Shown here piece after piece: positions 15,666-54,252 of a stretch of DNA of 64,000 nucleotides; positions within the stretch are counted from its first letter, which is position 1; each line of letters opens with the position of its first letter. The position numbers and the translations under genes are program-made. The notes under the pieces are model-generated. The model saw only the letters and a list, made by a program, of their open reading frames with translations. It did no database searches and was not told the DNA's origin. The stretch is from Clostridia bacterium (lineage in GTDB: Bacteria; UBA6262; WVXT01). Location: assembly GCA_009619095.1 (NCBI GenBank), contig WJOT01000078.1, forward strand, positions 6,232 to 70,231. The letters are read 5' to 3'.

Positions 15666-15673
15666 ACCACCTC

Positions 15674-16045
15674 CTACTTTAGAACGACGACCTTTACGGT
15701 CTTCGAAGATTTATCGATTTTGAGATTGACCAGGTATACTCCGTTTCCCACAACCTCGCCCTTATCATTCTTCCCATACCATTTTATAGTATCTTTCTTT
15801 TTTGTACTGTCTTCTTCCAATGTCTTTACAAGTTCTCCATTGATTGAATAGATTCTAATAGTTGCTCCTTCTTCTTTTACTTCATAGCGTATCTCGGTAT
15901 ACTGATCTTGAGCGTCTGAGGCTTCTGGATTGAACGGGTTATTCCATTCAATTCTTAGAACAATCCCATTGCCTGCTCCCAAAGGAAAAGCAAGAAGAGT
16001 AACTACCAATAGAGTGCAAAAAATGACTTTACCCAAATTTCCCAT
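15674..16045 (-). CDS. Small secreted protein consisting essentially of a T9SS type-A C-terminal sorting domain (FlgD-Ig-like)
   Basis: Signal peptide followed by WNNPFNPE...IRIYSINGELVKTL...WYGKNDKGEVVGNGVYLVNLKI, the Por-secretion CTD pattern. Stop is 9 nt upstream of the OMP gene start. Confidence 0.6.
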   Translation of the reverse strand: MGNLGKVIFCTLLVVTLLAFPLGAGNGIVLRIEWNNPFNPEASDAQDQYTEIRYEVKEEGATIRIYSINGELVKTLEEDSTKKKDTIKWYGKNDKGEVVGNGVYLVNLKIDKSSKTVKVVVLK

Positions 16046-16133
16046 TTTTTCTCACCAACCTTTCTCAAATTTCGCATTTCTGTTACGCAAAGCGGAACAC
16101 CGGGGCGCTCAAGCGTCTTTTGCCCGTCGCTAG

Positions 16134-16191
16134 TAAAAAAATGACTCTGATCCCTTTTTTTCACATAATTAAGTATTGTGTCCCCGGAATT
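16134..16191. repeat. R55 miniature repeat, copy 3, inserted between tRNA-Ser(CGA) and a remnant of the GC-rich element
   Basis: See 10440-10503. The flanking 16085-16133 is homologous to part of the GC-rich elements. Confidence 0.7.
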
Positions 16192-16199
16192 AAATCAAA

Positions 16200-16286
16200 C
16201 GGAGAGAGGAGGATTCGAACCTCCGATCCCGAAATCGGGATAGCGGTTTTCGAGACCGCCCCGTTCAACCACTCCGGCATCTCTCC
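16200..16286 (-). tRNA. tRNA-Ser (anticodon CGA), type II
   Basis: GGAGAGA-TG-CCGGAGTGGTTGAACGG...anticodon loop CTCGAAA...variable arm ATCCCGATTTCGGGAT...GGAGGTTCGAATCCTCC-TCTCTCC-G. Confidence 0.8.
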
Positions 16287-16292
16287 ATAGAA

Positions 16293-16739
16293 CTATTTGC
16301 CCTTAAAAAATTCGAAATGACTTTTAATTTCTGGATGGGCTTCCAAATAGTAAATCTCAAATACTCTAAACGGCACAAAGAGTATAATTCCGAGCATAAT
16401 CCCGATTGCCAACTTCCCTATCTCCCAGCGCGTAATCATAAGATAGATAATATAGAGAGTTGTCAGAATCATTATCGAGTGGCTTATCTGGGCAGGCATC
16501 GTCCTGGAAGACCAATCGAAAATAAAAAATCCCCCTGCTCCATAGAATAGAAGGAAAGGGATGGAAATATTCATTAATATTTTCTTCCCAAAAATCAGAG
16601 CAAATACTACAAACATCTGGATGAGAGAAGGAATATCCGTCATAACCCAGGAAATGAAATTGTATTTAAGAAAATAGAGGAATATAAACCCCGTCCATGC
16701 AACACATATCCCATTTGCAAAAATTAAAAAAAATTTCAC
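16293..16739 (-). CDS. Hypothetical integral membrane protein (4 TM)
   Basis: 148 aa, strongly hydrophobic. Flanked by tRNA genes. Confidence 0.45.
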   Translation of the reverse strand: MKFFLIFANGICVAWTGFIFLYFLKYNFISWVMTDIPSLIQMFVVFALIFGKKILMNISIPFLLFYGAGGFFIFDWSSRTMPAQISHSIMILTTLYIIYLMITRWEIGKLAIGIMLGIILFVPFRVFEIYYLEAHPEIKSHFEFFKGK

Positions 16740-16760
16740 TCCTGATCCCTATAAATTTAA

Positions 16761-16832
16761 AGGGCTCAGAGGGAATCGAACCCTCACACCAGGGTCCGCA
16801 ACCCTGTGCTCTATCCGTTGAGCTATGAGCCC
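16761..16832 (-). tRNA. tRNA-Arg (anticodon GCG)
   Basis: GGGCTCA-TA-GCTC-AACGGATA-GAGC-A-CAGGG-TTGCGGA-CCCTG-GTGT-GAGGG-TTCGATT-CCCTC-TGAGCCC-T. Confidence 0.7.
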
Positions 16833-16856
16833 ATGACTTTACGCTCTGCCACTTTG

Positions 16857-16901
16857 GGCGACCACCCCGATACATCGGGATAAACTGCGTGTCGCCCCTA
16901 C
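16857..16901. repeat. Nested-hairpin element GGGCGACCACCCCGATACATCGGGATAAACTGCGTGTCGCCCCTAC (module Z of the CCGAT repeat family)
   Basis: Also present at 19017-19061 (duplicate copy) and 40991-41036. Confidence 0.55.
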
Positions 16902-16932
16902 ATTAACACGGAACTATTGCTCTGCTACTCCT

Positions 16933-17298
16933 TTATTTATTTAACATTTCTTCTATTTTATCTAAAAGGACCTTCTTTCCGAATGGTTTGCTTATGAAAT
17001 AGCTCGGGCCTTCTGGCTTTAAGGTCTCGTATAACTCTCTGTCTTTAACTAAACCCGAATTGAAGATTACTGGCAGATTGAGAAATTCAGGCTTCTCCCT
17101 TAACCTTTTAATACTCTTATAGCCGCTCTGCCCGGGCATAATCACATCACAGATGATTAAGTCAGGTCTCTCTTTTTTGACTTTTTCTATCAAATCCAGC
17201 CCATCTCTAGCCAGGATTACTAGATATTTATCTTTGAGTAAACTTCCCAGTAACTCTCTCACATCCTCTTCATCATCTGCTACAACAATCTTTTTCAT
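16933..17298 (-). pseudogene. Truncated copy of the response-regulator gene (second REC domain only), created by the tandem duplication
   Basis: Identical to the C-terminal 121 aa of 19093-19911. It begins at an internal Met. Confidence 0.45.
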
Positions 17299-17825
17299 TG
17301 TGGCTGTAGCCTCAAAAAAGCAGAAGCTTTATTTCGGTCGATTCTACTCTCTAATCCCATTAAGTTAAAGCCGAAACAGAAGGACTTTGACACGGGGAGA
17401 CCATAAGCCAAACCTCCATAAATATCGTATACATTAAACTTGCCCTGGGGCGCGTCGCGGCTTATTTTGTCCATTCTGCCCATATGGAGATAAGAGACAT
17501 TAATCCCCAGAGTTCCCAAAGATATAGGGTGGATGTAACCCAAAAATTCATGGCTTATATTGCCCAGCCAGAAATTGTGCATTGTCTCTAATTCTGGATT
17601 AAAAACGAAAGCCAATCCTGCCGGGTTGCAGCGTATTGCGCTCACATCATCAGCTAAAGCGCAGAATGCTTCTCCCATTCCCATAGCCCGGGTGCCAATG
17701 TTCATTTTCAAGAAGTTCCCTGTGGTAGTGCCTACACCTGATGAGGAGAAAACTGAATTTGGAAAATATGCTATGAAAAGAAGAATAATTAAGAAAACAA
17801 CGCCAGAACCGAATAACTTCTTCAT
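17295..17825 (-). pseudogene. Truncated N-terminal (170 aa) copy of the FadL/PorV-like-OmpA OMP gene, created by the tandem duplication
   Basis: Identical to the N-terminus of 13674-15665. It diverges at the duplication junction (17314/17315) and terminates after 6 codons. Confidence 0.5.
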
Positions 17826-17833
17826 ACCACCTC

Positions 17834-18205
17834 CTACTTTAGAACGACGACCTTTACGGTCTTCGAAGATTTATCGATTTTGAGATTGACCAGGTATACT
17901 CCGTTTCCCACAACCTCGCCCTTATCATTCTTCCCATACCATTTTATAGTATCTTTCTTTTTTGTACTGTCTTCTTCCAATGTCTTTACAAGTTCTCCAT
18001 TGATTGAATAGATTCTAATAGTTGCTCCTTCTTCTTTTACTTCATAGCGTATCTCGGTATACTGATCTTGAGCGTCTGAGGCTTCTGGATTGAACGGGTT
18101 ATTCCATTCAATTCTTAGAACAATCCCATTGCCTGCTCCCAAAGGAAAAGCAAGAAGAGTAACTACCAATAGAGTGCAAAAAATGACTTTACCCAAATTT
18201 CCCAT
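17834..18205 (-). CDS. T9SS-CTD small secreted protein (duplicate copy)
   Basis: Identical to 15674-16045. Confidence 0.6.
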   Translation of the reverse strand: MGNLGKVIFCTLLVVTLLAFPLGAGNGIVLRIEWNNPFNPEASDAQDQYTEIRYEVKEEGATIRIYSINGELVKTLEEDSTKKKDTIKWYGKNDKGEVVGNGVYLVNLKIDKSSKTVKVVVLK

Positions 18206-18293
18206 TTTTTCTCACCAACCTTTCTCAAATTTCGCATTTCTGTTACGCAAAGCGGAACACCGGGGCGCTCAAGCGTCTTTTGCCCGTCGCTAG

Positions 18294-18351
18294 TAAAAAA
18301 ATGACTCTGATCCCTTTTTTTCACATAATTAAGTATTGTGTCCCCGGAATT
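18294..18351. repeat. R55 miniature repeat, copy 4 (within duplication copy B)
   Basis: Identical to 16134-16191. Confidence 0.7.
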
Positions 18352-18359
18352 AAATCAAA

Positions 18360-18446
18360 CGGAGAGAGGAGGATTCGAACCTCCGATCCCGAAATCGGGA
18401 TAGCGGTTTTCGAGACCGCCCCGTTCAACCACTCCGGCATCTCTCC
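18360..18446 (-). tRNA. tRNA-Ser (CGA), duplicate copy
   Basis: Identical to 16200-16286. Confidence 0.8.
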
Positions 18447-18452
18447 ATAGAA

Positions 18453-18899
18453 CTATTTGCCCTTAAAAAATTCGAAATGACTTTTAATTTCTGGATGGGC
18501 TTCCAAATAGTAAATCTCAAATACTCTAAACGGCACAAAGAGTATAATTCCGAGCATAATCCCGATTGCCAACTTCCCTATCTCCCAGCGCGTAATCATA
18601 AGATAGATAATATAGAGAGTTGTCAGAATCATTATCGAGTGGCTTATCTGGGCAGGCATCGTCCTGGAAGACCAATCGAAAATAAAAAATCCCCCTGCTC
18701 CATAGAATAGAAGGAAAGGGATGGAAATATTCATTAATATTTTCTTCCCAAAAATCAGAGCAAATACTACAAACATCTGGATGAGAGAAGGAATATCCGT
18801 CATAACCCAGGAAATGAAATTGTATTTAAGAAAATAGAGGAATATAAACCCCGTCCATGCAACACATATCCCATTTGCAAAAATTAAAAAAAATTTCAC
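18453..18899 (-). CDS. Hypothetical integral membrane protein (duplicate copy)
   Basis: Identical to 16293-16739. Confidence 0.45.
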   Translation of the reverse strand: MKFFLIFANGICVAWTGFIFLYFLKYNFISWVMTDIPSLIQMFVVFALIFGKKILMNISIPFLLFYGAGGFFIFDWSSRTMPAQISHSIMILTTLYIIYLMITRWEIGKLAIGIMLGIILFVPFRVFEIYYLEAHPEIKSHFEFFKGK

Positions 18900-18920
18900 T
18901 CCTGATCCCTATAAATTTAA

Positions 18921-18992
18921 AGGGCTCAGAGGGAATCGAACCCTCACACCAGGGTCCGCAACCCTGTGCTCTATCCGTTGAGCTATGAGCCC
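18921..18992 (-). tRNA. tRNA-Arg (GCG), duplicate copy
   Basis: Identical to 16761-16832. Confidence 0.7.
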
Positions 18993-19092
18993 ATGACTTT
19001 ACGCTCTGCCACTTTGGGCGACCACCCCGATACATCGGGATAAACTGCGTGTCGCCCCTACATTAACACGGAACTATTGCTCTGCTACTCCT

Positions 19093-19911
19093 TTATTTAT
19101 TTAACATTTCTTCTATTTTATCTAAAAGGACCTTCTTTCCGAATGGTTTGCTTATGAAATAGCTCGGGCCTTCTGGCTTTAAGGTCTCGTATAACTCTCT
19201 GTCTTTAACTAAACCCGAATTGAAGATTACTGGCAGATTGAGAAATTCAGGCTTCTCCCTTAACCTTTTAATACTCTTATAGCCGCTCTGCCCGGGCATA
19301 ATCACATCACAGATGATTAAGTCAGGTCTCTCTTTTTTGACTTTTTCTATCAAATCCAGCCCATCTCTAGCCAGGATTACTAGATATTTATCTTTGAGTA
19401 AACTTCCCAGTAACTCTCTCACATCCTCTTCATCATCTGCTACAACAATCTTTTTCATTGTGGCTGTAGCCTCACTTTTCTTTTTGATAGGAACTACCTT
19501 TGCAGTTTGACCACCTGGAGGGGCTACTCTGGTTTCCTTCCTTTTAAAAGGTGTCTTTCCTAAGGCTTTCTCCACTGCTGTTAAAAATTGTTCCCGAGAG
19601 AAAGGCTTGGGGAGATACTGTATAACATTCAATTCCTTCATCTGCAGGTCGAACCCGGCTATTGTGGCTATAATTATAGGGATATTTCTGGTAGCTTTAT
19701 CCTTCCGAATTTTCTTTACCATCTCGTAGCCGCTCAACCTGGGCAGAACATAATCCATCACAATTAAATCGGGTTTCTTTGATTGGACGAGTTCCAACCC
19801 CGACTCTCCATCTCTGGCTTCGATAAATTCAACATTGAATCTTCTCAAATGGACCTTCACTAAGAACCTTGCATCAATATCACTATCTACAATAAGCACT
19901 TTCTTAGGCAT
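19093..19911 (-). CDS. Response regulator with two tandem receiver (REC) domains and no output domain
   Basis: VLIVDSDIDARFL...DLIVMDYVLPRLSGYEM and a second IVVADDEEDVRELL...DLIICDVIMPGQSGYK. Confidence 0.7.
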   Translation of the reverse strand: MPKKVLIVDSDIDARFLVKVHLRRFNVEFIEARDGESGLELVQSKKPDLIVMDYVLPRLSGYEMVKKIRKDKATRNIPIIIATIAGFDLQMKELNVIQYLPKPFSREQFLTAVEKALGKTPFKRKETRVAPPGGQTAKVVPIKKKSEATATMKKIVVADDEEDVRELLGSLLKDKYLVILARDGLDLIEKVKKERPDLIICDVIMPGQSGYKSIKRLREKPEFLNLPVIFNSGLVKDRELYETLKPEGPSYFISKPFGKKVLLDKIEEMLNK

Positions 19912-41797: not shown

Positions 41798-42682
41798 TCA
41801 GCTTTTTAATAGTTCAACTATCCTTTCCAAATCTTCCAGGGAATAGTATTCAATTTCTATCTTACCCCGAACTTTCCCTCCTTCTCCCGGAGAAAACCTG
41901 CCAGAACCAGTAGACTTAATCCTCACTTTCGTCCCCAGAATTCTCTGGAGTTCTTCCTCCAGTTCAACGACCTCGGGACTCTTCTCTTTCTGGGCAACTC
42001 TTTTTCCTGAAGGAGTCCGTTTGACTCTCCATCTTTCTACAATATCTTCTGTTTCACGTACTGTCAACTTCTCCTTGAGTATCTTCCGGGCCAAGTCTAT
42101 TCGTTTCTCCTCCCCTGCGATAGAGAGGAGCACCCGGGCATGTCCGGCAGATATAAGTTTACGGGAAACGAACTCTTTAATCTCCTCAGGCAAATTGATA
42201 AGTCTCAAAATATTGGCAACCGTTGACCTGGTCTTTCCTAAATGGTCGGCCAATTCCTGCTGGGTTAGATTGAACTCCTTCATCAACCTTTCAAAAGCTG
42301 TAGCTTCTTCTATGGGATTCAGATCCTCTCTCTGGATATTCTCAATTAGAGATATCTCGAACATCTCCCTATCAGTAACTCTCCTGACCACTGCTGGAAT
42401 CTCTTTCAACTCTGCCATTTTGGCTGCCCACCAGCGCCTCTCTCCGGCTACCAGTTGGTAGTTCTCTCCTGAGGGAGAAACAATTATTGGTTGAACTACC
42501 CCCTTTCCCTTTATAGAATTCGCTAACTCCTTTAACTTTTCCTGGTCGAATTGCATCCTGGACTGGTATTTGTTAGGTTTTATCTTATTAATATCAATAC
42601 TTACAATTTCCATGGGAGCTACCCGGGGTACTTTCGGAATTAGTGCTTCTATCCCCTTACCCAGTGCTTTACGCATTCCCAT
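41798..42682 (-). CDS. parB: Chromosome partitioning protein ParB/Spo0J
   Basis: ParB box VAGERRWWAAKMAELKEIPAVV and HTH. Confidence 0.9.
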   Translation of the reverse strand: MGMRKALGKGIEALIPKVPRVAPMEIVSIDINKIKPNKYQSRMQFDQEKLKELANSIKGKGVVQPIIVSPSGENYQLVAGERRWWAAKMAELKEIPAVVRRVTDREMFEISLIENIQREDLNPIEEATAFERLMKEFNLTQQELADHLGKTRSTVANILRLINLPEEIKEFVSRKLISAGHARVLLSIAGEEKRIDLARKILKEKLTVRETEDIVERWRVKRTPSGKRVAQKEKSPEVVELEEELQRILGTKVRIKSTGSGRFSPGEGGKVRGKIEIEYYSLEDLERIVELLKS

Positions 42683-42695
42683 TACCTCCCAAAAC

Positions 42696-43505
42696 TCAAC
42701 TTTCTGACTCTTCTTCTATTTCCACTCCGTTCCTCTTCAGGAACTCTCGAGTCAATGAAAGGTACGACTGTGCACCTTTCGAATCTTTACTATATAGAAT
42801 AACAGGTTTCCCAAAACCCGGAGCCTCAGCCAGTCGCACATTTCTGGGAATTTTTGTCTGATAGACCGCCTGTTTAAAGAACTTACTTACCTCCTCAACT
42901 ACCTGGGAAGAGAGGTTGACTCGGCCATCAAACATAGTTAAAAGAGCCCCTTCGATCTGCAACCTGGGATTTAAATTTTCTCTTACCAGCCTCAATGTAT
43001 TCATTAGTTGGCCCAGACCTTCCAGAGCATAATATTCACACTGGATGGGAATAATTACTGAATGGGCTGCGGTCAGTGAGTTAACTGTGAGAAGGCCCAG
43101 GGAAGGTGGGCAATCGAGGAGAATATACTTGTAGAGGTTACCCAATCCATTGAGTGCTCTCTTTAGCCTTGTCTCCCGGGAGATAAGTCCCACAAGCTCC
43201 ACTTCTGCTCCAATCAAATCTACATTTGCTGGAACTAAATCGAGCCAGTCAATACCAGTGGGAACGAGGATATTTTCAATCGAGGCTTTTTCCAAAAGCA
43301 CTTCATAGATAGTATGTTTAACTTTATCCTTTTCCATACCCAGGCCACTTGTAGCATTCGACTGAGAATCCATATCGATAAGGAGTGTCTCCTGCCCATA
43401 ATGTGCCAGGCAGCTAGAGAGGTTAATAGCCGTTGTGGTCTTCCCCACTCCTCCCTTCTGATTTGCAATTGCCACAATCTTTGCCATAAGATACTCCTGC
43501 AACAA
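42696..43505 (-). CDS. parA: Chromosome partitioning ATPase ParA/Soj
   Basis: KIVAIANQKGGVGKTTTAINL deviant Walker A. Confidence 0.9.
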   Translation of the reverse strand: MLQEYLMAKIVAIANQKGGVGKTTTAINLSSCLAHYGQETLLIDMDSQSNATSGLGMEKDKVKHTIYEVLLEKASIENILVPTGIDWLDLVPANVDLIGAEVELVGLISRETRLKRALNGLGNLYKYILLDCPPSLGLLTVNSLTAAHSVIIPIQCEYYALEGLGQLMNTLRLVRENLNPRLQIEGALLTMFDGRVNLSSQVVEEVSKFFKQAVYQTKIPRNVRLAEAPGFGKPVILYSKDSKGAQSYLSLTREFLKRNGVEIEEESES

Positions 43506-43507
43506 AT

Positions 43508-43588
43508 GTCATTGCGAGTCCCGATTGAAAATCGGGAAAAGGAGCGTGGTCCCGATGAATCGGGACTTCACTCCGTTCGCAATGACAG
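43508..43588. repeat. Structured inverted-repeat element, copy B (GTCATTGCGAG ... two CCGAT hairpins ... CGTTCGCAATGAC)
   Basis: It shares the outer stem and internal AAAGGAGCGTGG / CTTCACTCCGTTCGCAATGACAG with 2518-2583. Confidence 0.5.
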
Positions 43589-43646
43589 AAAAAGTACTGT
43601 TTTAAAAATATTAGCAAAAAAATTAAAAATATACAATACAAAAAAT

Positions 43647-44387
43647 TTATCTAATCGGCCTTTTAACCACCACTCCTGTCCTTCGCGGATAATCTTCTGG
43701 CGTCTTCTCCACCTTATCCATCACTACCAGATTTCTCTCTAATTCTTCTCCTCTTAATGATAACTTATAAGGTATAATCTTATTTATTCTCCCACCCAGA
43801 ACTTCTATCGCCTTACCTGCTTTCTGGAGTTCACCCTTAATCTCTCGACCCTTTTGGGAAATGAAAATCCCTCCAATCTTAACGAAAGGGAGACAGTATT
43901 CAGCAAGGATAGCTAAATTACTAACTGCCCTGGATACCGCTAGATCATACTTCTCCCTGTACTCCCCATTCCTTCCGTACTCCTCCGCTCTTCCGTGAAT
44001 TACCTCTAAACTCCTTTCAAAACCCAGTTTACCAGAGATATAACGTATGAATTCTACCTTTTTCCTTGTCGCCTCAAGCAAAGTTAGCTCGAATCTTGGC
44101 TGATAAATTTTTAGCGGTATCCCGGGAAATCCTGCTCCTGAACCGATATCTATAATTTTTCTTATCTTTTGATAAATTTTAGATGGCACTCCTAAAAGGC
44201 AGAAAAGAGAATCTATAAAATGTTTAACCAAAATCTCCTCATCATCATTTATGGCAGTGAGATTAACCTTTCTGTTCCATTCCTGGAGTTCTTGCAAAAA
44301 TAGGAGGAACTTTCCTATCTGGTCCTTATCGAGCTCTATCCCTGCTTGTTTAGCTCTTTTTTGCAATGAGGTAGCTAACCCATCCAT
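43647..44387 (-). CDS. rsmG: 16S rRNA (guanine527-N7)-methyltransferase
   Basis: IIDIGSGAGFPGIPLKI SAM motif and GidB architecture. Confidence 0.9.
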   Translation of the reverse strand: MDGLATSLQKRAKQAGIELDKDQIGKFLLFLQELQEWNRKVNLTAINDDEEILVKHFIDSLFCLLGVPSKIYQKIRKIIDIGSGAGFPGIPLKIYQPRFELTLLEATRKKVEFIRYISGKLGFERSLEVIHGRAEEYGRNGEYREKYDLAVSRAVSNLAILAEYCLPFVKIGGIFISQKGREIKGELQKAGKAIEVLGGRINKIIPYKLSLRGEELERNLVVMDKVEKTPEDYPRRTGVVVKRPIR

Positions 44388-44391
44388 AAGT

Positions 44392-45312
44392 TTATCGTGG
44401 TTCCCAGAGCCTCTTCCACAGGGTTTCCACTTTTCTTTTCCTCATTAATTTATAGATTTCTCTTAGTTTAGCTCTGGTAGATTCTTCCCCTTTCTTTATA
44501 CAATAATCTAACTTCTTAAAATTTACCCAGTGAATATTATCCACATTTGGCTTTATCACCAGATCTGCCTTTTTCAACCGAAGTTCGTTAAGAAATAACC
44601 CTGAAATATAGCTAGTCCTGAGAATAACGTCAAGTCCTGTCTTCATCTCCTGATAGTTACTACGCGGGAAAGACCCGTGCACATCCACACCTGCCACTAA
44701 ATCGGCACCCAATCTGAAAGCAACATCCACGGGAACCAGGTTCACCGCACCTCCATCGACCAATCTCCTGCCCTCCCATTTCAAGGGTGGGAAAAGGCCA
44801 GGAATAGTGATGCTTGCCCGAACCGCCTCTCTCAAAGGCCCCTTAGTAAAACAGAGTTCTCTATTGGAAGTTAGGTCAGTACTGACACAAGCAAAGGGAA
44901 TCCTTAAATCTTCTATATTCTTATCTGGCAGGATACTATTTACTATTGCCTCTGCCCTCTTCTCACTAACCAGAGCAAGCTTTACTAAACTCAGGTTATA
45001 AATCAACTTCCACTTTGCATAAGAGACAATCTTTTTAATGGGTTTTGAGCCTTCTTCTCTTATCTCATCCTTTAAGAATTCGAGCCTGGCTCGTTTGTAT
45101 TCACTGCTCTCCAAAAATTCTAAACCTTTCTTCTCAATAGAAGAAGCATTATACCCACAGGCATAGAGCGCCCCGATTAGGGCCCCTGAGCTGGTGCCGG
45201 CAATAACATCGATGGATATTCCCTCATCCTCCAGAACCTTCAACACCCCTATGTGCGCCAACCCCCTTGCTCCTCCGCCACCCAGGGCTAAACCGAACCT
45301 CAATTTTCGCAT
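44392..45312 (-). CDS. Patatin-like phospholipase
   Basis: GGGARGLAHIGVL...GTSSGALIGA (GxSxG) and a DGG motif. Confidence 0.8.
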   Translation of the reverse strand: MRKLRFGLALGGGGARGLAHIGVLKVLEDEGISIDVIAGTSSGALIGALYACGYNASSIEKKGLEFLESSEYKRARLEFLKDEIREEGSKPIKKIVSYAKWKLIYNLSLVKLALVSEKRAEAIVNSILPDKNIEDLRIPFACVSTDLTSNRELCFTKGPLREAVRASITIPGLFPPLKWEGRRLVDGGAVNLVPVDVAFRLGADLVAGVDVHGSFPRSNYQEMKTGLDVILRTSYISGLFLNELRLKKADLVIKPNVDNIHWVNFKKLDYCIKKGEESTRAKLREIYKLMRKRKVETLWKRLWEPR

Positions 45313-45690
45313 ATATTTTCCTTATACAAAATGAGAGCTCCTAAATTGTTTCACGTGAAACAATTTTCCAGCAAAAAGGGGTTAAAAAGGGACCTCAAAA
45401 AGGGCTCTGACCCCCTCTTTTTCAAACCTCAATTTTCGCATATATTTTCCTTATACAAAATGAGAGCCCCCTAAATTGTTTCACGTGAAACAATTTTCCA
45501 GCAAAAAGGGGTCAAAAAGGAGCCTCAAAAAGGGCTCTGACCCCCTCTTTTTCAAACCTCAATTTTCGCATATATTTTCCTTATGCGAAATGAGAGCTCC
45601 CAAATTGTTTCACGTGAAACAATTTTCCAGCAAAAAGGGGGCTAAAAATAGAGTTGACCCCTTTTTTTTAGTTTATGAGATGTCGGTTTT
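45298..45690. repeat. About 129-bp tandem direct repeat x about 2.8. Each unit carries the patatin RBS and first 7 codons, plus a 22-bp perfect palindrome AATTGTTTCACGTGAAACAATT.
   Basis: Units start at 45298, 45427 and 45557. Palindromes are at 45344-45365, 45474-45495 and 45603-45624. Confidence 0.85.
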
Positions 45691-46161
45691 CCACAATTTT
45701 GTCAGTTCGACTCCAGCCCTGAAGAGGTATTTCTTTCCCCTGAGCCACGTCTTTACCGAACCGACTCCTACTACTTTTCCTCCTTTTGCTTCCACTTTGC
45801 CCTTTAAAATATCGATAGCGCGGCGATATCCTGTTCCTCTTGAGGTAACAAATAGGATTACCTTTTTATCCATAAGATTACAGGTCTGGAGAAATGTATT
45901 AAGGGCAGGAGTGGGACTGGATGCCCAAACAGGTGTGCCCAATATAATCAGTTCATATTTGCTTAAATCAAAACCTGAAGGAGCCACTTCAGTGTTTAAG
46001 CCAAGGTGGGCATCCCGCGCCCCTCGGAGAAAACCAAAAGGCCCTTTTCTCTTTTTGAGGTCTCTTATCTCCACTAAGTCTCCACCCAGTTCCTGTTGAA
46101 ATTTCTCTGCTAAAAATCTTGTCTTCCCCGTCCGGGAATAGTAGAGAATCACGCTTTTCAT
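45673..46161 (-). CDS. Flavodoxin
   Basis: MKSVILYYSRTGKTRFLAE... flavodoxin-like fold, 162 aa. Confidence 0.7.
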   Translation of the reverse strand: MKSVILYYSRTGKTRFLAEKFQQELGGDLVEIRDLKKRKGPFGFLRGARDAHLGLNTEVAPSGFDLSKYELIILGTPVWASSPTPALNTFLQTCNLMDKKVILFVTSRGTGYRRAIDILKGKVEAKGGKVVGVGSVKTWLRGKKYLFRAGVELTKLWKTDIS

Positions 46162-46203: not shown

Positions 46204-46629
46204 CTACCCTATTGCTTCTCCTTCCACTACTCTCCATGTACCATCATCCTCTTTTATTAGAGAAAGCTTAAAAAATTCCCTCCCTTTAAGGTAACCAAAT
46301 TCTCTATGGGAAGCTTCAATGACAATGAATAGATAGATATCACATCTTTTACCCTTGAACTTCTTCCTCTTTCTTAAAATATCAATCTTAAAATCACCAA
46401 ACCCTTTAAGGAAATCTTCTACTTTAATCTTTAGACCATGGTAATCGTTCCCATATCTATCTTTATAATCTCTGGAAACGTAATTAAACGCCTCCTCAAA
46501 CTTCTTCTCCTCTATCAGTTGCTTTGCTTCCTTAATGAATCGTTCAACCAACCAGCGATCTTTGATGAATGAATCGTATACAATGAACAGAATAGCAAGG
46601 ACAATAAGGAGAACAATGAGTCTCTTCAT
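46204..46629 (-). CDS. Hypothetical membrane-anchored protein (start re-set to MKRLIV)
   Basis: N-terminal TM LIVLLIVLAILFIV. The upstream Met would overlap the IS element end. Confidence 0.4.
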   Translation of the reverse strand: MKRLIVLLIVLAILFIVYDSFIKDRWLVERFIKEAKQLIEEKKFEEAFNYVSRDYKDRYGNDYHGLKIKVEDFLKGFGDFKIDILRKRKKFKGKRCDIYLFIVIEASHREFGYLKGREFFKLSLIKEDDGTWRVVEGEAIG

Positions 46630-47922
46630 TCCACTCTGACCGTTCTCTAAAATGTGTACAAATCTGTACACGGCTTAGTTCCTGCTTCATTGAGACCGGT
46701 TTCATCCCGACATGAGTCGGGACCAGCGCCTTTCTCTCCACAGGCTTGAAATCCGGTGGAACTCACCGTACTCTCGAGATTGATAGCGGCATTCAGCTCA
46801 CGATCTATCTCCAAACCACAATTGTTACATTTAAAAACCCGATCGCTTAATGTTATTGAATCATTGATAACATGGCAACGAGAACAACGTTTAGATGACG
46901 GAAACCAACGGTCAACAACTTCGATATGATTGTTTCGCATCTGCGACTTATATCCTAACTGCCGCCGAAACTCATAAAATCCCATATCGGCAATGCTACG
47001 GGCCAGCACATGGTTAGACATCATGCCTTTAACATTCAAATCTTCAATGGCAATAGCGGCAAAATTGTTGCTCAGATGCGACGTAAGCTTATGTAGTGTA
47101 TCCTGGCGAATGCAGCTAATACGGTAATGCAACCTTGCCACTTTTATCCGCGCCTTATTGCGGTTGTTTGAACCTTTCTGTTTACGAGATAATTGCTGCT
47201 GCAGGCATTTAAGCTTATTCAGATGCTTCTTTAGCGGCTTAGACCCCTCAAACTTCTGCCCAGTGGACAAGGTTGCTAACCTGCTTACCCCTAAATCAAC
47301 CCCAACCACTGCTTGGCTCTCACAGGGTTGGGGCCGTTGATTCAGTTCTACGTTAAGGCTGATAAACCATTTATCCGCAACATGACAAACAGTAGCTGAT
47401 ATCACCTTGCCTGAAAACCGCAGGGCCTCTCGCATCTTCACCCAGCCCAATTTCGGAATATGAACTCGTTTGTCTTCTATCTTGATGTGATCGCAACCTA
47501 TATAAAAACTGTCATGTATTCCTTTCTTCTTGAATTGAGGATAATTTGCCTTTTTGCCGAAAAAACGCTTAAATGCACTTTGCAAGAAAATAAAAGGCTG
47601 CTGGCTGGCATATTTGGTAACATTATACATCCAGGGAAATTCAACGGGCTTAATGGCGTTGAACTGCCTTTTTAACCCTAATCCTGTTGGCTTTTTGCCG
47701 GCCTCATATTGCCTTTTCCATTCACCCAAGGCCCAATTCCATGTGAAACGAGCTACGCCACATGCCTGCCTGAAATAATTCTCCTGCTTATAAGTCGGTT
47801 TAAGCCGGATTTTATGAGTAAGCGTAATTTTAACCATAACCTATTCCACTTTTTAACTGCTAGATTTTAATACATTATAGCACATATCATTAGATTCTAG
47901 AATATTGTTCTTTGCCCTTTTT
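46630..47922 (-). mobile_element. IS605/IS1341-family insertion carrying only tnpB. No tnpA is present.
   Basis: tnpB ORF with imperfect inverted/hairpin ends. Local GC content is visibly higher than the surrounding genome. Confidence 0.6.
46647..47837 (-). CDS. tnpB: IS605-family transposase accessory protein TnpB (RNA-guided RuvC-like nuclease)
   Basis: OrfB_IS605 architecture with RuvC-I VVGVDLGVSRLATLS and a RuvC-III Asp (EIDRELNAAINL). Zinc finger CSRCHVIN...CNNCGLEIDRELNAAINL. Confidence 0.85.
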   Translation of the reverse strand: MVKITLTHKIRLKPTYKQENYFRQACGVARFTWNWALGEWKRQYEAGKKPTGLGLKRQFNAIKPVEFPWMYNVTKYASQQPFIFLQSAFKRFFGKKANYPQFKKKGIHDSFYIGCDHIKIEDKRVHIPKLGWVKMREALRFSGKVISATVCHVADKWFISLNVELNQRPQPCESQAVVGVDLGVSRLATLSTGQKFEGSKPLKKHLNKLKCLQQQLSRKQKGSNNRNKARIKVARLHYRISCIRQDTLHKLTSHLSNNFAAIAIEDLNVKGMMSNHVLARSIADMGFYEFRRQLGYKSQMRNNHIEVVDRWFPSSKRCSRCHVINDSITLSDRVFKCNNCGLEIDRELNAAINLESTVSSTGFQACGEKGAGPDSCRDETGLNEAGTKPCTDLYTF

Positions 47923-52494: not shown

Positions 52495-52890
52495 CTGTTC
52501 TCACACCAATCTAAGATTTTTTTAAATTGTATCTTTTATTTATTCTCTTGTCAAGGATTGGTTCGAGGTCAAACTTTTCCCCTAAAAAAAATGTTGACAG
52601 GGTTTGAGAAGAATAATATAATATCTCCGGAAATTTTTTTCTACATTAGGCAAAGGCTATCAAAGTTCTATCCCTTTACCCCATTACTACCTGAGGTTTA
52701 TCCCCTGAGGTTTATCCCCAAACCCCTGGATTGACGACAGGCAGTTTGAGTTCTCTTACCAAAAGAAATTTGATAAATTCTGAATTATAGATATCTCAAA
52801 CCAAAAATCGGATTACTCTTTTCTAAGTTATGCACACCTGTGAACAACCTGTTAGTAACTTTCCGCAAATCGGTGGAGAAGGGGGCAAAA
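52495..52890. promoter_or_regulatory. rpmH-dnaA intergenic region: candidate oriC half with DnaA-box-like sites and a perfect sigma70 promoter directed at dnaA
   Basis: TTGACA(52594-52599)-17 nt-TATAAT(52617-52622). Tandem CCTGAGGTTTATCCCC x2 (52689-52720). TTATGCACA at 52828-52836. Confidence 0.5.
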
Positions 52891-54252
52891 ATGGTGCTGT
52901 CCGCAGAGCAATTATGGAACGAAATTCTAAATAAACTCAAGGAAGAAATGCCCAAAGATAGTTACGAACTCTGGTTCAAACCCACAAGAGCCGTATCTTT
53001 TGAAGACAATCTCCTAAACGTTCAGGTGCCCAATAGGTTCTTTTCCAAATATTTACAAGAGAAGCACAAGGGAAAAATCGAAGAATTGTTAAGAGTAACT
53101 ACTGCCTCAGAAGCGCAAATAATTTTCACCATTGACCCCCAATCCCACATCCAGGAAAAGGAAAGAAAAGATGAAGAAATTGAACCTACATCGATTGCCG
53201 CAGACGAGACTACCTTCACCACAATGGAATTCAATCCCAAGTACACCTTTGAGAATTTTGTGGTTGGTCCTTCTAATCGTTTCGCTCACGCAACTGCTGA
53301 GGCGGTAGCCAATGACCCTGGAAAAGCCTACAATCCTCTATTCATATATGGAGGAGTGGGCTTGGGGAAAACACATTTATTACAGGCTATTGGACACTAT
53401 AATAAAAAACAGAACCCCAGGCTCGCTGTTCTCTATATCACATCGGAAAGATTCACCAATGAACTTATTGAATCGATCCGAAACGACAGGATGGTAGAAT
53501 TCCGCAACAAATATCGCCATCTGGATGTTCTTATGATTGACGACATCCAATTTCTGGTCGGGAAAGAAAGCACGCAAGAAGAATTTTTCCATCTTTTCAA
53601 TACCCTTTATGAAGCTCACAAACAGATTGTTATTTCCTCTGATTCCACCCCCAAGGAGATACCTACTATCGAAGAAAGGCTCCGCTCCCGATTCCAATGG
53701 GGAGTAATTGCCGATATCCAGCCGCCTGATATAGAGACCAGAATTGCCATCTTGAGAAAGAAAGCAGAGGCAGAAAACATCTTCATTCCAGACGATGTAG
53801 TTCTGTTTCTTGCCAGCCAAATAAAGTCCAACATCAGAGAGTTGGAAGGGTGTTTAATCAGAATTGTGGCATTTTCTTCATTGACCGGAAGTGAAGTTAC
53901 TGTGGACCGGTCTAAAGAAATTCTAAAGGATATAATTACCAAAGAAGAGCTTGCTGTTCCCATAACCATAGAACTGATTCAAAACGCAGTGAGTAAACAT
54001 TTCCATCTGGATGTTAAAGAGATGAAAAGTAAAAAGAGAACAGATGCCGTTGCTTTTCCCAGGCAGGTGGCAATGTATCTGGCCAGAACCTTAACCGAAT
54101 ATTCTACGACAGAGATTGGGGCGGACTTTGGTGGCAGAGATCATACAACAGTAATGTATGCTTGTGAAAAGATTAAGATGAAACTTGCCGGCGACCCTTT
54201 CTTCGCCGCTCTCATAAATAAGATAACGCAGGAAATAAAGACAGGAGTATAA
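52891..54252 (+). CDS. dnaA: Chromosomal replication initiator DnaA (start re-set to MVLSAEQLW with GGAGAAGGGGG RBS)
   Basis: AAA+ motif GGVGLGKTHLL, sensor motifs and a C-terminal DnaA-box-binding domain. Confidence 0.9.
   Translation: MVLSAEQLWNEILNKLKEEMPKDSYELWFKPTRAVSFEDNLLNVQVPNRFFSKYLQEKHKGKIEELLRVTTASEAQIIFTIDPQSHIQEKERKDEEIEPTSIAADETTFTTMEFNPKYTFENFVVGPSNRFAHATAEAVANDPGKAYNPLFIYGGVGLGKTHLLQAIGHYNKKQNPRLAVLYITSERFTNELIESIRNDRMVEFRNKYRHLDVLMIDDIQFLVGKESTQEEFFHLFNTLYEAHKQIVISSDSTPKEIPTIEERLRSRFQWGVIADIQPPDIETRIAILRKKAEAENIFIPDDVVLFLASQIKSNIRELEGCLIRIVAFSSLTGSEVTVDRSKEILKDIITKEELAVPITIELIQNAVSKHFHLDVKEMKSKKRTDAVAFPRQVAMYLARTLTEYSTTEIGADFGGRDHTTVMYACEKIKMKLAGDPFFAALINKITQEIKTGV

What the first reader, a model, noticed from the sequence alone, without database searches (positions are those of the whole stretch)
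45298..45690. Triplicated promoter/5' end of the patatin-like phospholipase gene, each unit carrying a 22-bp perfect palindrome
An about 129-bp unit is repeated roughly 2.8 times directly upstream of the patatin gene. Every unit contains the gene's RBS plus ATGCGAAAATTGAGG (the first 5 codons, M-R-K-L-R), a TG-TATAAG -10-like element, and the perfect palindrome AATTGTTTCACGTGAAACAATT. The palindrome overlaps the -35 position, which looks like an operator; half-sites TTGTTTCAC / GTGAAACAA resemble Rex/CRP-family type sites. Copies 2 and 3 could drive short upstream ORFs (MRKLRFEKEGVRALFE...) or serve as extra operators. It could also be a phase or copy-number variable regulatory array.
Basis: partly seen in the sequence, partly recalled or inferred. 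Interest (0 to 1): 0.6.

Follow-up and report, generated by a model that had tools for sequence, protein, structure and literature searches.

The report
Tandem triplicated parS centromere near origin
The repeated "operator" palindrome is the standard bacterial chromosome centromere site parS, present three times because the whole spacer in front of a phospholipase gene was tandemly duplicated; it is an ordinary kind of element arranged in an instructive way.

Summary
The 360-nt flavodoxin–patatin spacer plus the first 16–17 nt of the patatin gene (minus strand) is present as three tandem ~130-nt units. Each unit carries the perfect palindrome AATTGTTTCACGTGAAACAATT.

The interpretation needs replacing. 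The 16-nt core TGTTTCACGTGAAACA matches the chromosomal parS consensus TGTTNCACGTGAAACA at all 15 specified positions, and it fits Rex, CRP and FNR sites poorly. The array lies 2.6 kb upstream of a canonical parA–parB pair and about 7 kb from dnaA and the GC-skew switch. These are the only parS sites in the 64 kb.

Independent assemblies and relatives carry 1, 2 or 3 units at this spot. Unit flank types differ between 3-unit arrays, so the third unit was gained more than once. In old copies the duplicated ribosome-binding site, start codon and mini-ORF decay, while all 29 parS in the patatin-bearing lineages stay perfect (core 16/16 invariant columns against 25/94 in the flanks). Selection therefore acts on parS, not on promoters or upstream ORFs.

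Most likely this is a multi-site ParB loading centre grown by tandem duplication. It is a known kind of element. Its modest interest is as a natural 1/2/3-parS series, in a clade whose ParB has lost the third arginine of GERRxRA.

The parts
45296..45672 (-). Whole array: three tandem ~130-nt copies of the flavodoxin-patatin spacer plus the first 16-17 nt of the patatin gene. Proximal unit 45296-45425, middle 45426-45555, distal 45556-45672.
   Evidence: TRF period 130, 2.7 copies, 95% match. The 8-sequence unit alignment shows the distal copy is homologous over its full length apart from a 12-nt indel.
45347..45362 (.). parS-1 (proximal), TGTTTCACGTGAAACA. It starts 50-51 nt before the patatin ATG. 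The extended 22-nt palindrome is 45344-45365.
   Evidence: 0 of 15 mismatches to the parS consensus (consensus from PMC7022226). The site sits at -50/-51 in every relative that has the gene except L097.
45477..45492 (.). parS-2 (middle unit). The extended palindrome is 45474-45495.
45606..45621 (.). parS-3 (distal unit). The extended palindrome is 45603-45624.
45508..45544 (-). Hairpin GGGGTCAGAGCC..GGCTC..TGACCCC followed by TTTTTG, between the distal and middle units. It is terminator-like and is a duplicated, extended copy of the hairpin behind the flavodoxin gene.
   Evidence: MFE -25.3 kcal/mol, z -2.85. Its inner stem is the only terminator-like hit in the scan.
45378..45414 (-). The same hairpin between the middle and proximal units, weakened by substitutions (GGTCC, TAACCCC).
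   Evidence: MFE -17.0 kcal/mol, z -0.44; alignment.
45637..45661 (-). Short A-run / GGGG..CCCC / T-run hairpin directly behind the flavodoxin stop codon. It is the probable terminator of that gene and the original of the duplicated hairpins.
   Evidence: MFE -10.4 kcal/mol, z -1.04, so weak; homology to the other two.
45512..45571 (-). Duplicated SD and ATG of the patatin gene in the distal unit, opening a 19-codon ORF (MRKLRFEKEGVRALFEAPF*). Judged a by-product of the duplication.
   Evidence: Translation and the fate of the equivalent copies in relatives (ACG starts, early stops, SD lost).
45382..45441 (-). The same duplicated start in the middle unit (MRKLRFEKEGVRALFEVPF*).
44392..45312 (-). 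Patatin-like phospholipase gene. Its first 16-17 nt belong to the repeat unit. rsmG follows 4 nt after it.
   Evidence: Pfam PF01734, 2.1e-37; ORF table.
42696..43505 (-). parA (Soj-type partition ATPase).
   Evidence: PF13614 3.2e-66 and PF01656.
41798..42682 (-). parB (chromosomal ParB/Spo0J), the predicted binder of the three palindromes. It carries GERRWWA in place of GERRxRA.
   Evidence: ParB_N, HTH_ParB and ParB_C domains. TIGR00180 scores 190.8 bits against a cutoff of 58; the Noc model scores 244 against a cutoff of 315. Best solved relatives are Spo0J/ParB. Motif.
43647..44387 (-). rsmG (gidB), the conserved neighbour of parAB near origins.
   Evidence: TIGR00138 3.5e-49.
45673..46161 (-). 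Flavodoxin-family gene that bounds the array on the upstream side.
   Evidence: PF12682 and related families.
52840..54252 (+). dnaA. Gene orientation and GC skew switch here, which marks the replication origin about 7 kb from the array.
   Evidence: Pfam Bac_DnaA 1.5e-73. GC skew changes sign between the 48-52 kb and 56-60 kb bins. DnaA-box-like sites at 52712, 52828, 54406, 54428 and 54507.

Best explanation
The three palindromes are three copies of parS, the chromosomal centromere site.

By the established ParABS mechanism, dimers of the ParB encoded 2.6 kb downstream bind each 16-nt site through their helix-turn-helix domains. They close into CTP-dependent clamps and slide onto the flanking DNA. 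This builds the origin-proximal partition complex that ParA (and usually SMC) acts on.

The array arose by tandem duplication of the whole parS-bearing spacer. The unit runs from the terminator hairpin of the upstream flavodoxin gene to nucleotide 16-17 of the patatin gene. The terminator, ribosome-binding site, start codon and a 19-codon mini-ORF were copied along as passengers.

Unequal recombination between units keeps changing the copy number (1-3 in the clade). Selection keeps every surviving parS perfect while the passengers decay.

Shown here: the sequence identity to parS, the ParAB and origin context, the duplication structure, the copy-number variation, and the differential conservation. 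Inferred: ParB binding itself, and that extra copies are kept because they raise ParB loading or make it more robust.
For: 1. Consensus. TGTTTCACGTGAAACA has 0 of 15 mismatches to TGTTNCACGTGAAACA. The consensus is quoted from PMC7022226.
2. Occurrence. There are only three sites in 64 kb, all in the array, against 0.17 expected.
3. Context. The window holds the canonical origin neighbourhood: gyrB, dnaN and dnaA on one strand, rnpA, yidC, jag, mnmE, rsmG, parA and parB on the other. GC skew changes sign at about 52-56 kb.
4. The binder. ParB has all three ParB domains and passes TIGR00180. It fails the Noc cutoff, and it is closest to solved Spo0J/ParB structures (1vz0 at 3.5e-58), ahead of Noc.
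5. Precedent. In 80 unrelated parB loci, perfect or near-perfect parS next to parAB is the rule, and 27 loci have two or more within 400 bp.
6. Copy number in the clade. It is 3 in the window, L001, L087, L088 and L090. It is 2 in L002, L089, L094, L095, L096 and L099. It is 1 in L092, L093 and L097.
7. Differential conservation. All 29 parS upstream of the gene in the 14 loci examined are perfect, with no decayed copy at up to 3 mismatches. In the alignment of 27 of these units the core is invariant at 16 of 16 columns against 25 of 94 flank columns (Fisher p = 1.5e-8). Duplicated starts, by contrast, are ACG in 2 copies, are followed by a stop at codon 2 or 5 in 3 copies, and have lost the SD in 5 copies.
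8. Recurrent gain. Flank types in 3-unit arrays are A-B-B (window, L088), A-A-B (L090) and C-A-B (L087).
9. Same spot, other routes. Deeper branches that lack the patatin gene still hold 1-2 perfect parS at the same spot with other spacings (49 and 65 bp), and L101 keeps a dead remnant of the patatin start behind parS.
Against: - No binding data exist. The organism is uncultured and known only from metagenomes.
- One parS suffices in model species (PMC7022226, PMC7333895), and single-unit lineages exist here. Extra copies may therefore be tolerated rather than needed.
- The units are not independent samples, because of shared descent and possible gene conversion. The Fisher p-value overstates the evidence.
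- The 2-unit state of L002 could be a short-read collapse, since Logan contigs break inside the repeat. The 1- and 2-unit states in more diverged relatives cannot be explained that way.
- This clade's ParB lacks the third arginine of GERRxRA, so its spreading behaviour may differ from textbook ParB.
Confidence: 0.85

Rival explanations
1. Dual use. The parS nearest the gene also serves as an operator through which ParB represses or tunes a patatin-rsmG-parA-parB transcript (autoregulation). Extra units add operators and terminators that insulate the operon from flavodoxin read-through.
For: - parS sits at a fixed -50/-51 from the patatin ATG in all lineages with the gene except L097.
- patatin and rsmG are 4 nt apart, and parA and parB are 13 nt apart.
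- Each unit begins with a hairpin plus T-run.
- ParB-dependent effects on neighbouring genes are documented in some species (PMC7022226).
Against: - No sigma-70-like promoter is found on this strand.
- The fixed distance can be explained by common descent.
- A 141-nt gap precedes parA, which may have its own promoter.
- In B. subtilis, loss of Spo0J did not change expression of genes next to parS (PMC7022226).
- L097 lost the proximal parS without losing the gene.
Confidence: 0.2
2. Neutral passenger. The array is just a slippage or unequal-crossover product of a spacer that happens to contain parS. The extra parS copies have no selective value and will be lost again.
For: - Copy number goes both up and down in the clade, and single-unit lineages exist.
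- One parS is sufficient in several model species (PMC7022226, PMC7333895).
- The same window holds another exact tandem duplication of 2160 bp, which suggests this genome or assembly duplicates readily.
Against: - Old duplicate units, whose SD, start codon and ORF have decayed, still have a perfect 16-mer. No decayed parS was found in any array.
- Multiplication at this spot happened by at least three different routes: a 130-nt tandem unit, and 49- and 65-nt spacings.
Confidence: 0.2
3. The palindrome is an operator for a Rex/CRP/FNR-type transcription factor that controls the patatin gene, and the units act as extra promoters or operators that drive upstream ORFs.
For: It is a perfect palindrome in front of a gene, with a -10-like TATAAG 17 nt downstream of it.
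Against: - Rex 5 of 14, CRP 4 of 10 and FNR 3 of 10 mismatches, against 0 of 15 for parS.
- The half-site arrangement is TTTCAC|GTGAAA with no spacer, which is the inverse of TGTGA-N6-TCACA.
- No promoter-like site on the gene strand.
- TATAAG overlaps the SD.
- The mini-ORFs decay in relatives.
- The same 16-mer lies next to parAB in dozens of unrelated phyla.
Confidence: 0.03
4. Assembly artefact or a dispersed repeat (REP/MITE) inserted here.
For: Short-read contigs break inside the repeat.
Against: - The units differ by substitutions and an indel.
- Four other independent assemblies (L001, L087, L088, L090) also show 3 units, and the last three have their own SNPs.
- The non-parS parts of the unit occur nowhere else in the window.
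Confidence: 0.02

Closest known systems
Chromosomal parS sites of the ParABS system (B. subtilis Spo0J sites, Thermus, Caulobacter and others; consensus TGTTNCACGTGAAACA)
   Same: The 16-nt sequence is identical to the consensus. The location is origin-proximal and next to rsmG-parA-parB. A canonical three-domain ParB is encoded beside it.
   Different: The three sites are paralogous copies inside one tandemly duplicated 130-nt unit. They are not independent sites scattered in or between genes. Copy number differs between close strains.
Origin-proximal parS clusters (for example P. aeruginosa parS1-4, the C. glutamicum parS sites, and the 20-23 sites of S. coelicolor, as summarised in PMC7022226 and PMC7333895)
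   Same: Several parS lie close together near oriC. 27 of 80 unrelated parB loci examined here also have two or more parS within 400 bp.
   Different: Here the origin of the cluster is directly legible: a tandem duplication whose junction lies inside a gene's 5' end. Of the 80 other loci, only L033 (Butyrivibrio, 39-nt period, 3 parS) registers as a tandem repeat.
Tandem-repeat plasmid centromeres such as F-plasmid sopC (12 x 43-bp repeats, each with a SopB-binding inverted repeat). This comparison is from my own knowledge and was not tested here.
   Same: The architecture matches: direct repeats, each carrying one inverted-repeat binding site for a ParB-family protein.
   Different: This array is chromosomal. 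It uses the universal chromosomal parS sequence, has much longer units made of ordinary spacer and gene-start DNA, and has only 1-3 copies.
Noc-binding sites (NBS) of the ParB paralogue Noc in Firmicutes
   Same: They are palindromic sites for a ParB-family protein.
   Different: The NBS consensus ATTTCCCGGGAAAT mismatches at 4 of 14 positions. The protein scores below the Noc model cutoff (244 against 315 bits).

Membership tests
Chromosomal parS (ParABS centromere) | 16-bp palindrome matching TGTTNCACGTGAAACA | tested here: met
   0 of 15 mismatches at all three sites. Consensus quoted from PMC7022226.
Chromosomal parS (ParABS centromere) | A cognate chromosomal ParB (N-terminal CTPase domain, HTH, C-terminal dimerisation domain) and ParA encoded in the genome | tested here: met
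   PF02195, PF17762 and PF23552. TIGR00180 at 190.8 bits against a cutoff of 58.45. ParA PF13614 at 3.2e-66. Best PDB relatives are Spo0J/ParB. Caveat: the motif is GERRWWA instead of GERRxRA.
Chromosomal parS (ParABS centromere) | Location in the origin-proximal domain | tested here: met
   About 7.2 kb from the dnaA start. Gene orientation and GC-skew sign switch at about 52-56 kb.
Chromosomal parS (ParABS centromere) | Site conserved under purifying selection in relatives | tested here: met
   29 of 29 sites in the patatin-bearing lineages are perfect and no decayed copies were found. Core 16/16 invariant columns against 25/94 in the flanks. The deep branches also have perfect sites at the same locus.
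Chromosomal parS (ParABS centromere) | Specific ParB binding, CTP-dependent loading and spreading from the site | not testable with these tools
   Needs ChIP-seq, or EMSA/BLI with the purified protein.
Rex operator | Match to TTGTGAA-N4-TTCACAA (consensus from my own knowledge) | tested here: not met
   The best alignment has 5 of 14 mismatches.
CRP/FNR-family operator | TGTGA-N6-TCACA (CRP) or TTGAT-N4-ATCAA (FNR) (consensus from my own knowledge) | tested here: not met
   4 of 10 and 3 of 10 mismatches. The half-sites are inverted and abut each other.
Noc-binding site | ATTTCCCGGGAAAT and a Noc protein | tested here: not met
   4 of 14 mismatches. TIGR04285 scores 244 bits against a cutoff of 315.
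Sigma-70 promoter repeated three times | -35 and -10 hexamers with 16-18 nt spacing on the gene's strand | tested here: not met
   No hit on the minus strand. No -35 match upstream of TATAAG, and TATAAG overlaps the SD (from the sequence). Promoter rules of this uncultured lineage are unknown, so a non-consensus promoter is not excluded.
Phase-variable (contingency) repeat locus | Frequent reversible copy-number change within a population that alters expression | tested here: inconclusive
   Copy number differs between assemblies with an identical patatin protein (3 against 2), and that is the only within-strain hint. The 2-unit assembly could be collapsed, no read-level data were available, and the 130-nt units are unlike classical contingency tracts.
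Plasmid-type tandem centromere (sopC-like) | Tandem direct repeats that each carry one ParB-family binding palindrome | tested here: met
   Three units, each with one palindrome. This is an architectural resemblance only. The sequence is the chromosomal parS and the replicon is a chromosome (dnaA, dnaN, gyrB).

The most novel reading that the evidence does not exclude
This uncultured clade has an altered ParB. The third arginine of the CTP-pocket motif GERRxRA is W, S or C in 48 of 49 clade representatives, against R in 67 of 71 outside it. In B. subtilis, R82A abolishes DNA condensation. The novel reading is that repeated, selectively maintained multiplication of parS at one spot (1 to 3 sites, by at least three routes) compensates for weaker loading or bridging per site. 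The clade would then be a natural allelic series linking parS dosage to ParB biochemistry, and a worked example of how parS clusters are born.
Probability: 0.12. Interest if true: 0.6.

Novelty: new member of a known kind. Interest (0 to 1): 0.33.

Why it matters
As an element it is ordinary. parS next to parAB near oriC is textbook, and this re-identification removes a false lead (a Rex/CRP regulon and a triplicated promoter).

Its value is as an example. [quoted passage not shown] Here the birth of a cluster can be read directly:
- The tandem duplication has its junction inside a gene's 5' end.
- Units were gained and lost repeatedly among close relatives.
- Selection is visible on the 16-mer only.

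A clade with natural 1-, 2- and 3-parS alleles, and a ParB lacking a normally conserved arginine, would be a convenient system for asking what parS dosage does.

A practical point for annotation follows. Perfect palindromes containing CACGTG beside rsmG/parAB should be checked against parS before being called operators, and short-read assemblies tend to break or collapse at such arrays.

Tried and rejected
- Rex, CRP, FNR and Noc-site readings were rejected on mismatch counts.
- The triplicated sigma-70 promoter was rejected. There is no hit on the gene strand, and the only two hits are on the opposite strand.
- Functional upstream ORFs were rejected, because starts, SDs and frames decay in older copies.
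- A dispersed REP/MITE element was rejected. The unit parts are absent elsewhere in the window, and half-parS heptamers outside the array are at background level.
- An assembly artefact was rejected on the evidence of independent assemblies with diverged copies.
- The genome-contig scan with ParB returned only relatives at 52% identity or less, so it did not give the organism's name. NCBI labels for clade members are just '[bacterium]' or 'subsurface metagenome'. Taxonomy remains unknown.
- TRF over the 80 unrelated loci found only one other tandem parS array (L033), so I cannot claim that tandem duplication is the general route to parS clusters.
- I looked for a link between the ParB R/W variant and parS number. 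The one R-bearing clade member (P0045, L101) has 2 parS, so no correlation is evident, though this is a single case.
- Livny et al. 2007 (PMC2168934) is not in the held library.
- A search for papers on tandem duplication of parS found nothing relevant.
- My first regular expression for the pseudo-start codons failed for most units. It was redone.
Full report
**1. What is in the sequence**

The patatin-like phospholipase gene lies on the minus strand (44392..45312). Upstream of it, at higher coordinates, Tandem Repeats Finder reports a 130-nt unit at 45296..45648, with 2.7 copies, 95% matches and score 627.

Reading the minus strand and aligning the units shows that the most upstream copy is also complete. 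It matches the other two through the hairpin region apart from a 12-nt indel. The array is therefore three full copies of the entire 360-nt flavodoxin–patatin spacer plus the first 16–17 nt of the patatin gene. The units are proximal 45296–45425, middle 45426–45555 and distal 45556–45672.

In the direction of the gene, each unit contains:
- an A-run / G+C hairpin / T-run;
- the 22-nt perfect palindrome AATTGTTTCACGTGAAACAATT;
- about 35 nt of spacer;
- AAGGAAAATAT, then ATGCGAAAATTGAGGT.

The 16-nt core of the palindrome occurs three times and nowhere else in the 64 kb, even with 3 mismatches allowed. The expectation is 0.17, and 0 of 100 shuffles reach 3. The only correction is that the distal unit reads CATAAG rather than TATAAG.

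**2. What the palindrome is**

TGTTTCACGTGAAACA is the chromosomal parS consensus. The review PMC7022226 gives that consensus as TGTTNCACGTGAAACA. The match is 15 of 15 specified positions.

The best alignments to the other candidate sites are much worse:

| Site | Mismatches / specified positions |
|---|---|
| parS | 0 / 15 |
| Rex | 5 / 14 |
| CRP | 4 / 10 |
| FNR | 3 / 10 |
| Noc-binding site | 4 / 14 |

The context fits. The window carries gyrB, dnaN and dnaA on the plus strand. On the minus strand it carries rnpA, yidC, jag, mnmE, a TnpB gene, a hypothetical gene, flavodoxin, patatin, rsmG, parA and parB. Gene orientation switches and GC skew changes sign at about 52–56 kb, with DnaA-box-like sites on either side of dnaA. 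The array is thus about 7 kb from the origin and 2.6 kb upstream of parB.

The ParB has the N-terminal, HTH and C-terminal ParB domains. It passes the TIGR00180 cutoff and fails the Noc model cutoff. It is closest to solved chromosomal Spo0J/ParB proteins (1vz0 at 3.5e-58; 7bnk; 6sdk), ahead of Noc.

In 80 unrelated parB loci fetched as a baseline, parS next to parAB is the norm, and 27 loci have two or more sites within 400 bp.

**3. Is the array real, and does its copy number vary?**

An exact-protein look-up found two informative assemblies. One independent assembly (L001) has the identical 3-unit array. The other (L002, GCA_013282395.1) has the identical patatin protein but a 231-nt spacer holding two units. 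Its proximal unit is a mosaic of the window's middle and proximal units and has private SNPs. Four short-read contigs break inside the repeat.

A metagenome scan with the patatin protein returned relatives of 81–98% identity. Copy number in the clade is:

| Units | Loci |
|---|---|
| 3 | window, L001, L087, L088, L090 |
| 2 | L002, L089, L094, L095, L096, L099 |
| 1 | L092, L093, L097 (in L097 the gene-proximal parS is the one lost) |

The spacer between parS and the start codon falls into recognisable types. In the 3-unit arrays the order of types differs: A-B-B in the window and L088, A-A-B in L090, and C-A-B in L087. The third unit was therefore gained more than once. Types A and C are shared with lineages whose patatin is only 81–88% identical, so the first duplication is old.

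**4. What is under selection**

I searched the upstream regions of 14 loci for degenerate copies. Every palindrome present (29 in all) is perfect, and no copy with 1–3 mismatches exists. The only 4–5-mismatch hits lie inside coding sequence.

In an alignment of 27 of these units, the 16 core columns are all invariant, against 25 of 94 flank columns (Fisher p = 1.5e-8). The units are related by descent, so that p-value is generous.

The duplicated gene starts tell the opposite story:
- The 19-codon mini-ORF is intact only in the young copies of the window's close relatives.
- In older copies the start is ACG (L096, L097).
- A stop follows at codon 2 (L095, L101) or codon 5 (L094).
- The Shine-Dalgarno is lost in five copies.

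Selection therefore maintains parS in each unit, and not the promoter, RBS or ORF parts.

Deeper branches of the clade (ParB 78–81% identical) lack the patatin gene but still have one or two perfect parS in the same flavodoxin–rsmG spacer. The spacings there are 49 or 65 nt, and one site overlaps the flavodoxin stop codon. L101 retains a dead remnant of the patatin start behind its parS. So parS has been multiplied at this spot by at least three routes.

**5. Promoter, terminator and operator claims**

The consensus scan finds no sigma-70-like promoter on the gene's strand. The two hits it finds are on the other strand. The proposed −10 (TATAAG) has no −35 match 16–18 nt upstream. It overlaps the proposed SD (AAGGA) and ends 8 nt before the ATG (from the sequence). 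The triplicated-promoter reading is not supported, although the promoter rules of this uncultured lineage are unknown.

The hairpin in the middle unit is strong (−25.3 kcal/mol, z −2.85) and is followed by a T-run. The other two are weaker. They look like copies of the flavodoxin gene's terminator.

ParB bound at the proximal parS might also influence a patatin–rsmG–parAB transcript. I keep this as a non-exclusive rival at about 0.2, because the −50/−51 position is fixed in nearly all lineages. Nothing here tests it.

**6. Mechanism proposed**

Shown here:
- three perfect parS sites in a tandemly duplicated spacer beside parAB near oriC;
- recurrent gain and loss of units;
- purifying selection confined to the 16-mer.

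From established knowledge (reviews PMC7333895, PMC10786196, PMC7022226): ParB dimers bind parS, close as CTP-dependent clamps and slide outward. This forms the partition complex that ParA and SMC use. One parS is often enough, and several may add robustness.

Inferred: the array is a three-site ParB loading centre, and extra units are retained because they raise or secure loading.

**7. Comparison with what is known, and novelty**

This is a member of the chromosomal parS class. All sequence-level defining features were tested and met, and binding was not testable.

Architecturally it resembles tandem-repeat plasmid centromeres such as F sopC (my own knowledge), but it is not one. Among the 80 baseline loci, only L033 also shows a tandem parS repeat (39-nt period). 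I found no paper describing tandem duplication of chromosomal parS.

PMC7333895 explicitly lists the variable number and the clustering of parS as open questions. This clade gives a legible example of how a cluster forms. I rate it a new member of a known kind, of modest interest.

**8. Side observation**

The ParB of this clade reads GERRWWA where chromosomal ParBs have GERRxRA. This holds in all nine further clade loci that cover parB. The residue at the third-arginine position is:

| Set | Residue counts |
|---|---|
| 49 clade representatives from the large protein database | W 45, S 2, C 1, R 1 |
| next 71 hits | R 67, K 2, Q 2 |

PMC10786196, citing Song et al. 2017, reports that B. subtilis R82A loses DNA condensation in vitro. 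For the set of mutants that includes it, fluorescent foci were absent or diffuse in vivo in most cases.

Whether this relaxed residue is connected with parS multiplication is speculation. The single R-bearing member has two parS.

Noticed in passing
window 41798-42682 (-), ParB residues about 77-89 (LVAGERRWWAAKM); also L001, L002, L087-L090, L092, L094, L095, L098 and P0001-P0049: The third arginine of the conserved CTP-pocket/arginine-patch motif GERRxRA is replaced in this clade (W 45, S 2, C 1, R 1 of 49 representatives). 67 of the next 71 homologues keep R. The equivalent B. subtilis R82A mutant is reported to lose DNA condensation (PMC10786196). This suggests relaxed or altered constraint on ParB in this lineage.
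   Followed up: partly
window 15155-17314 and 17315-19474: An exact (100% identical) 2160-bp tandem duplication. Each copy carries two tRNA genes (16200-16286 and 16761-16832; 18360-18446 and 18921-18992) and the same 123-aa and 148-aa ORFs. It is either a very recent duplication or an assembly artefact.
   Followed up: partly
window 46647-47837 (-) and 46204-46671 (-): A TnpB / IS605 OrfB-type gene (OrfB_IS605, Cas12f1-like TNB and HTH domains) is inserted between mnmE and the flavodoxin gene. The overlapping downstream 155-aa ORF has no Pfam hit. Any omega-RNA or transposon ends were not examined.
   Followed up: no
L088, L089, L090 and L099 (about 100 nt between the flavodoxin gene and the array); L101 5670-5710 and 6010-6070: A short element containing GTAGTGTAGGGCTTTATGCCCGTAATGG... 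is present between flavodoxin and the parS array in some relatives and absent from the window. Similar copies lie in the 600-nt rsmG-parA spacer of L101. It is possibly a small dispersed repeat of this clade.
   Followed up: no
L101 4643-4658; L106 5227-5242; L107 1958-1973: In deep-branching relatives one perfect parS overlaps the 3' end of the flavodoxin gene. In L101 it reads GAA TGT TTC ACG TGA, so the TGA inside parS would be that gene's stop codon. A second parS lies 49-65 nt downstream.
   Followed up: partly
L101 4755-4790: A dead remnant of the patatin gene start (ATG TGA AAA TTG AGG TCT GG) persists behind parS in a lineage that has otherwise lost the patatin gene. This shows the gene was ancestral and was later deleted.
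   Followed up: partly
window 43506-43646: mnmG (gidA), usually found between mnmE and rsmG, is absent from this origin region. There is also a 141-nt gap between rsmG and parA that could hold a separate parAB promoter.
   Followed up: no
L033 9061-9155 (Butyrivibrio MAG): An unrelated genome has three perfect parS in a 39-nt-period tandem repeat just upstream of parA/parB. Tandem parS arrays are therefore not unique to this clade.
   Followed up: partly
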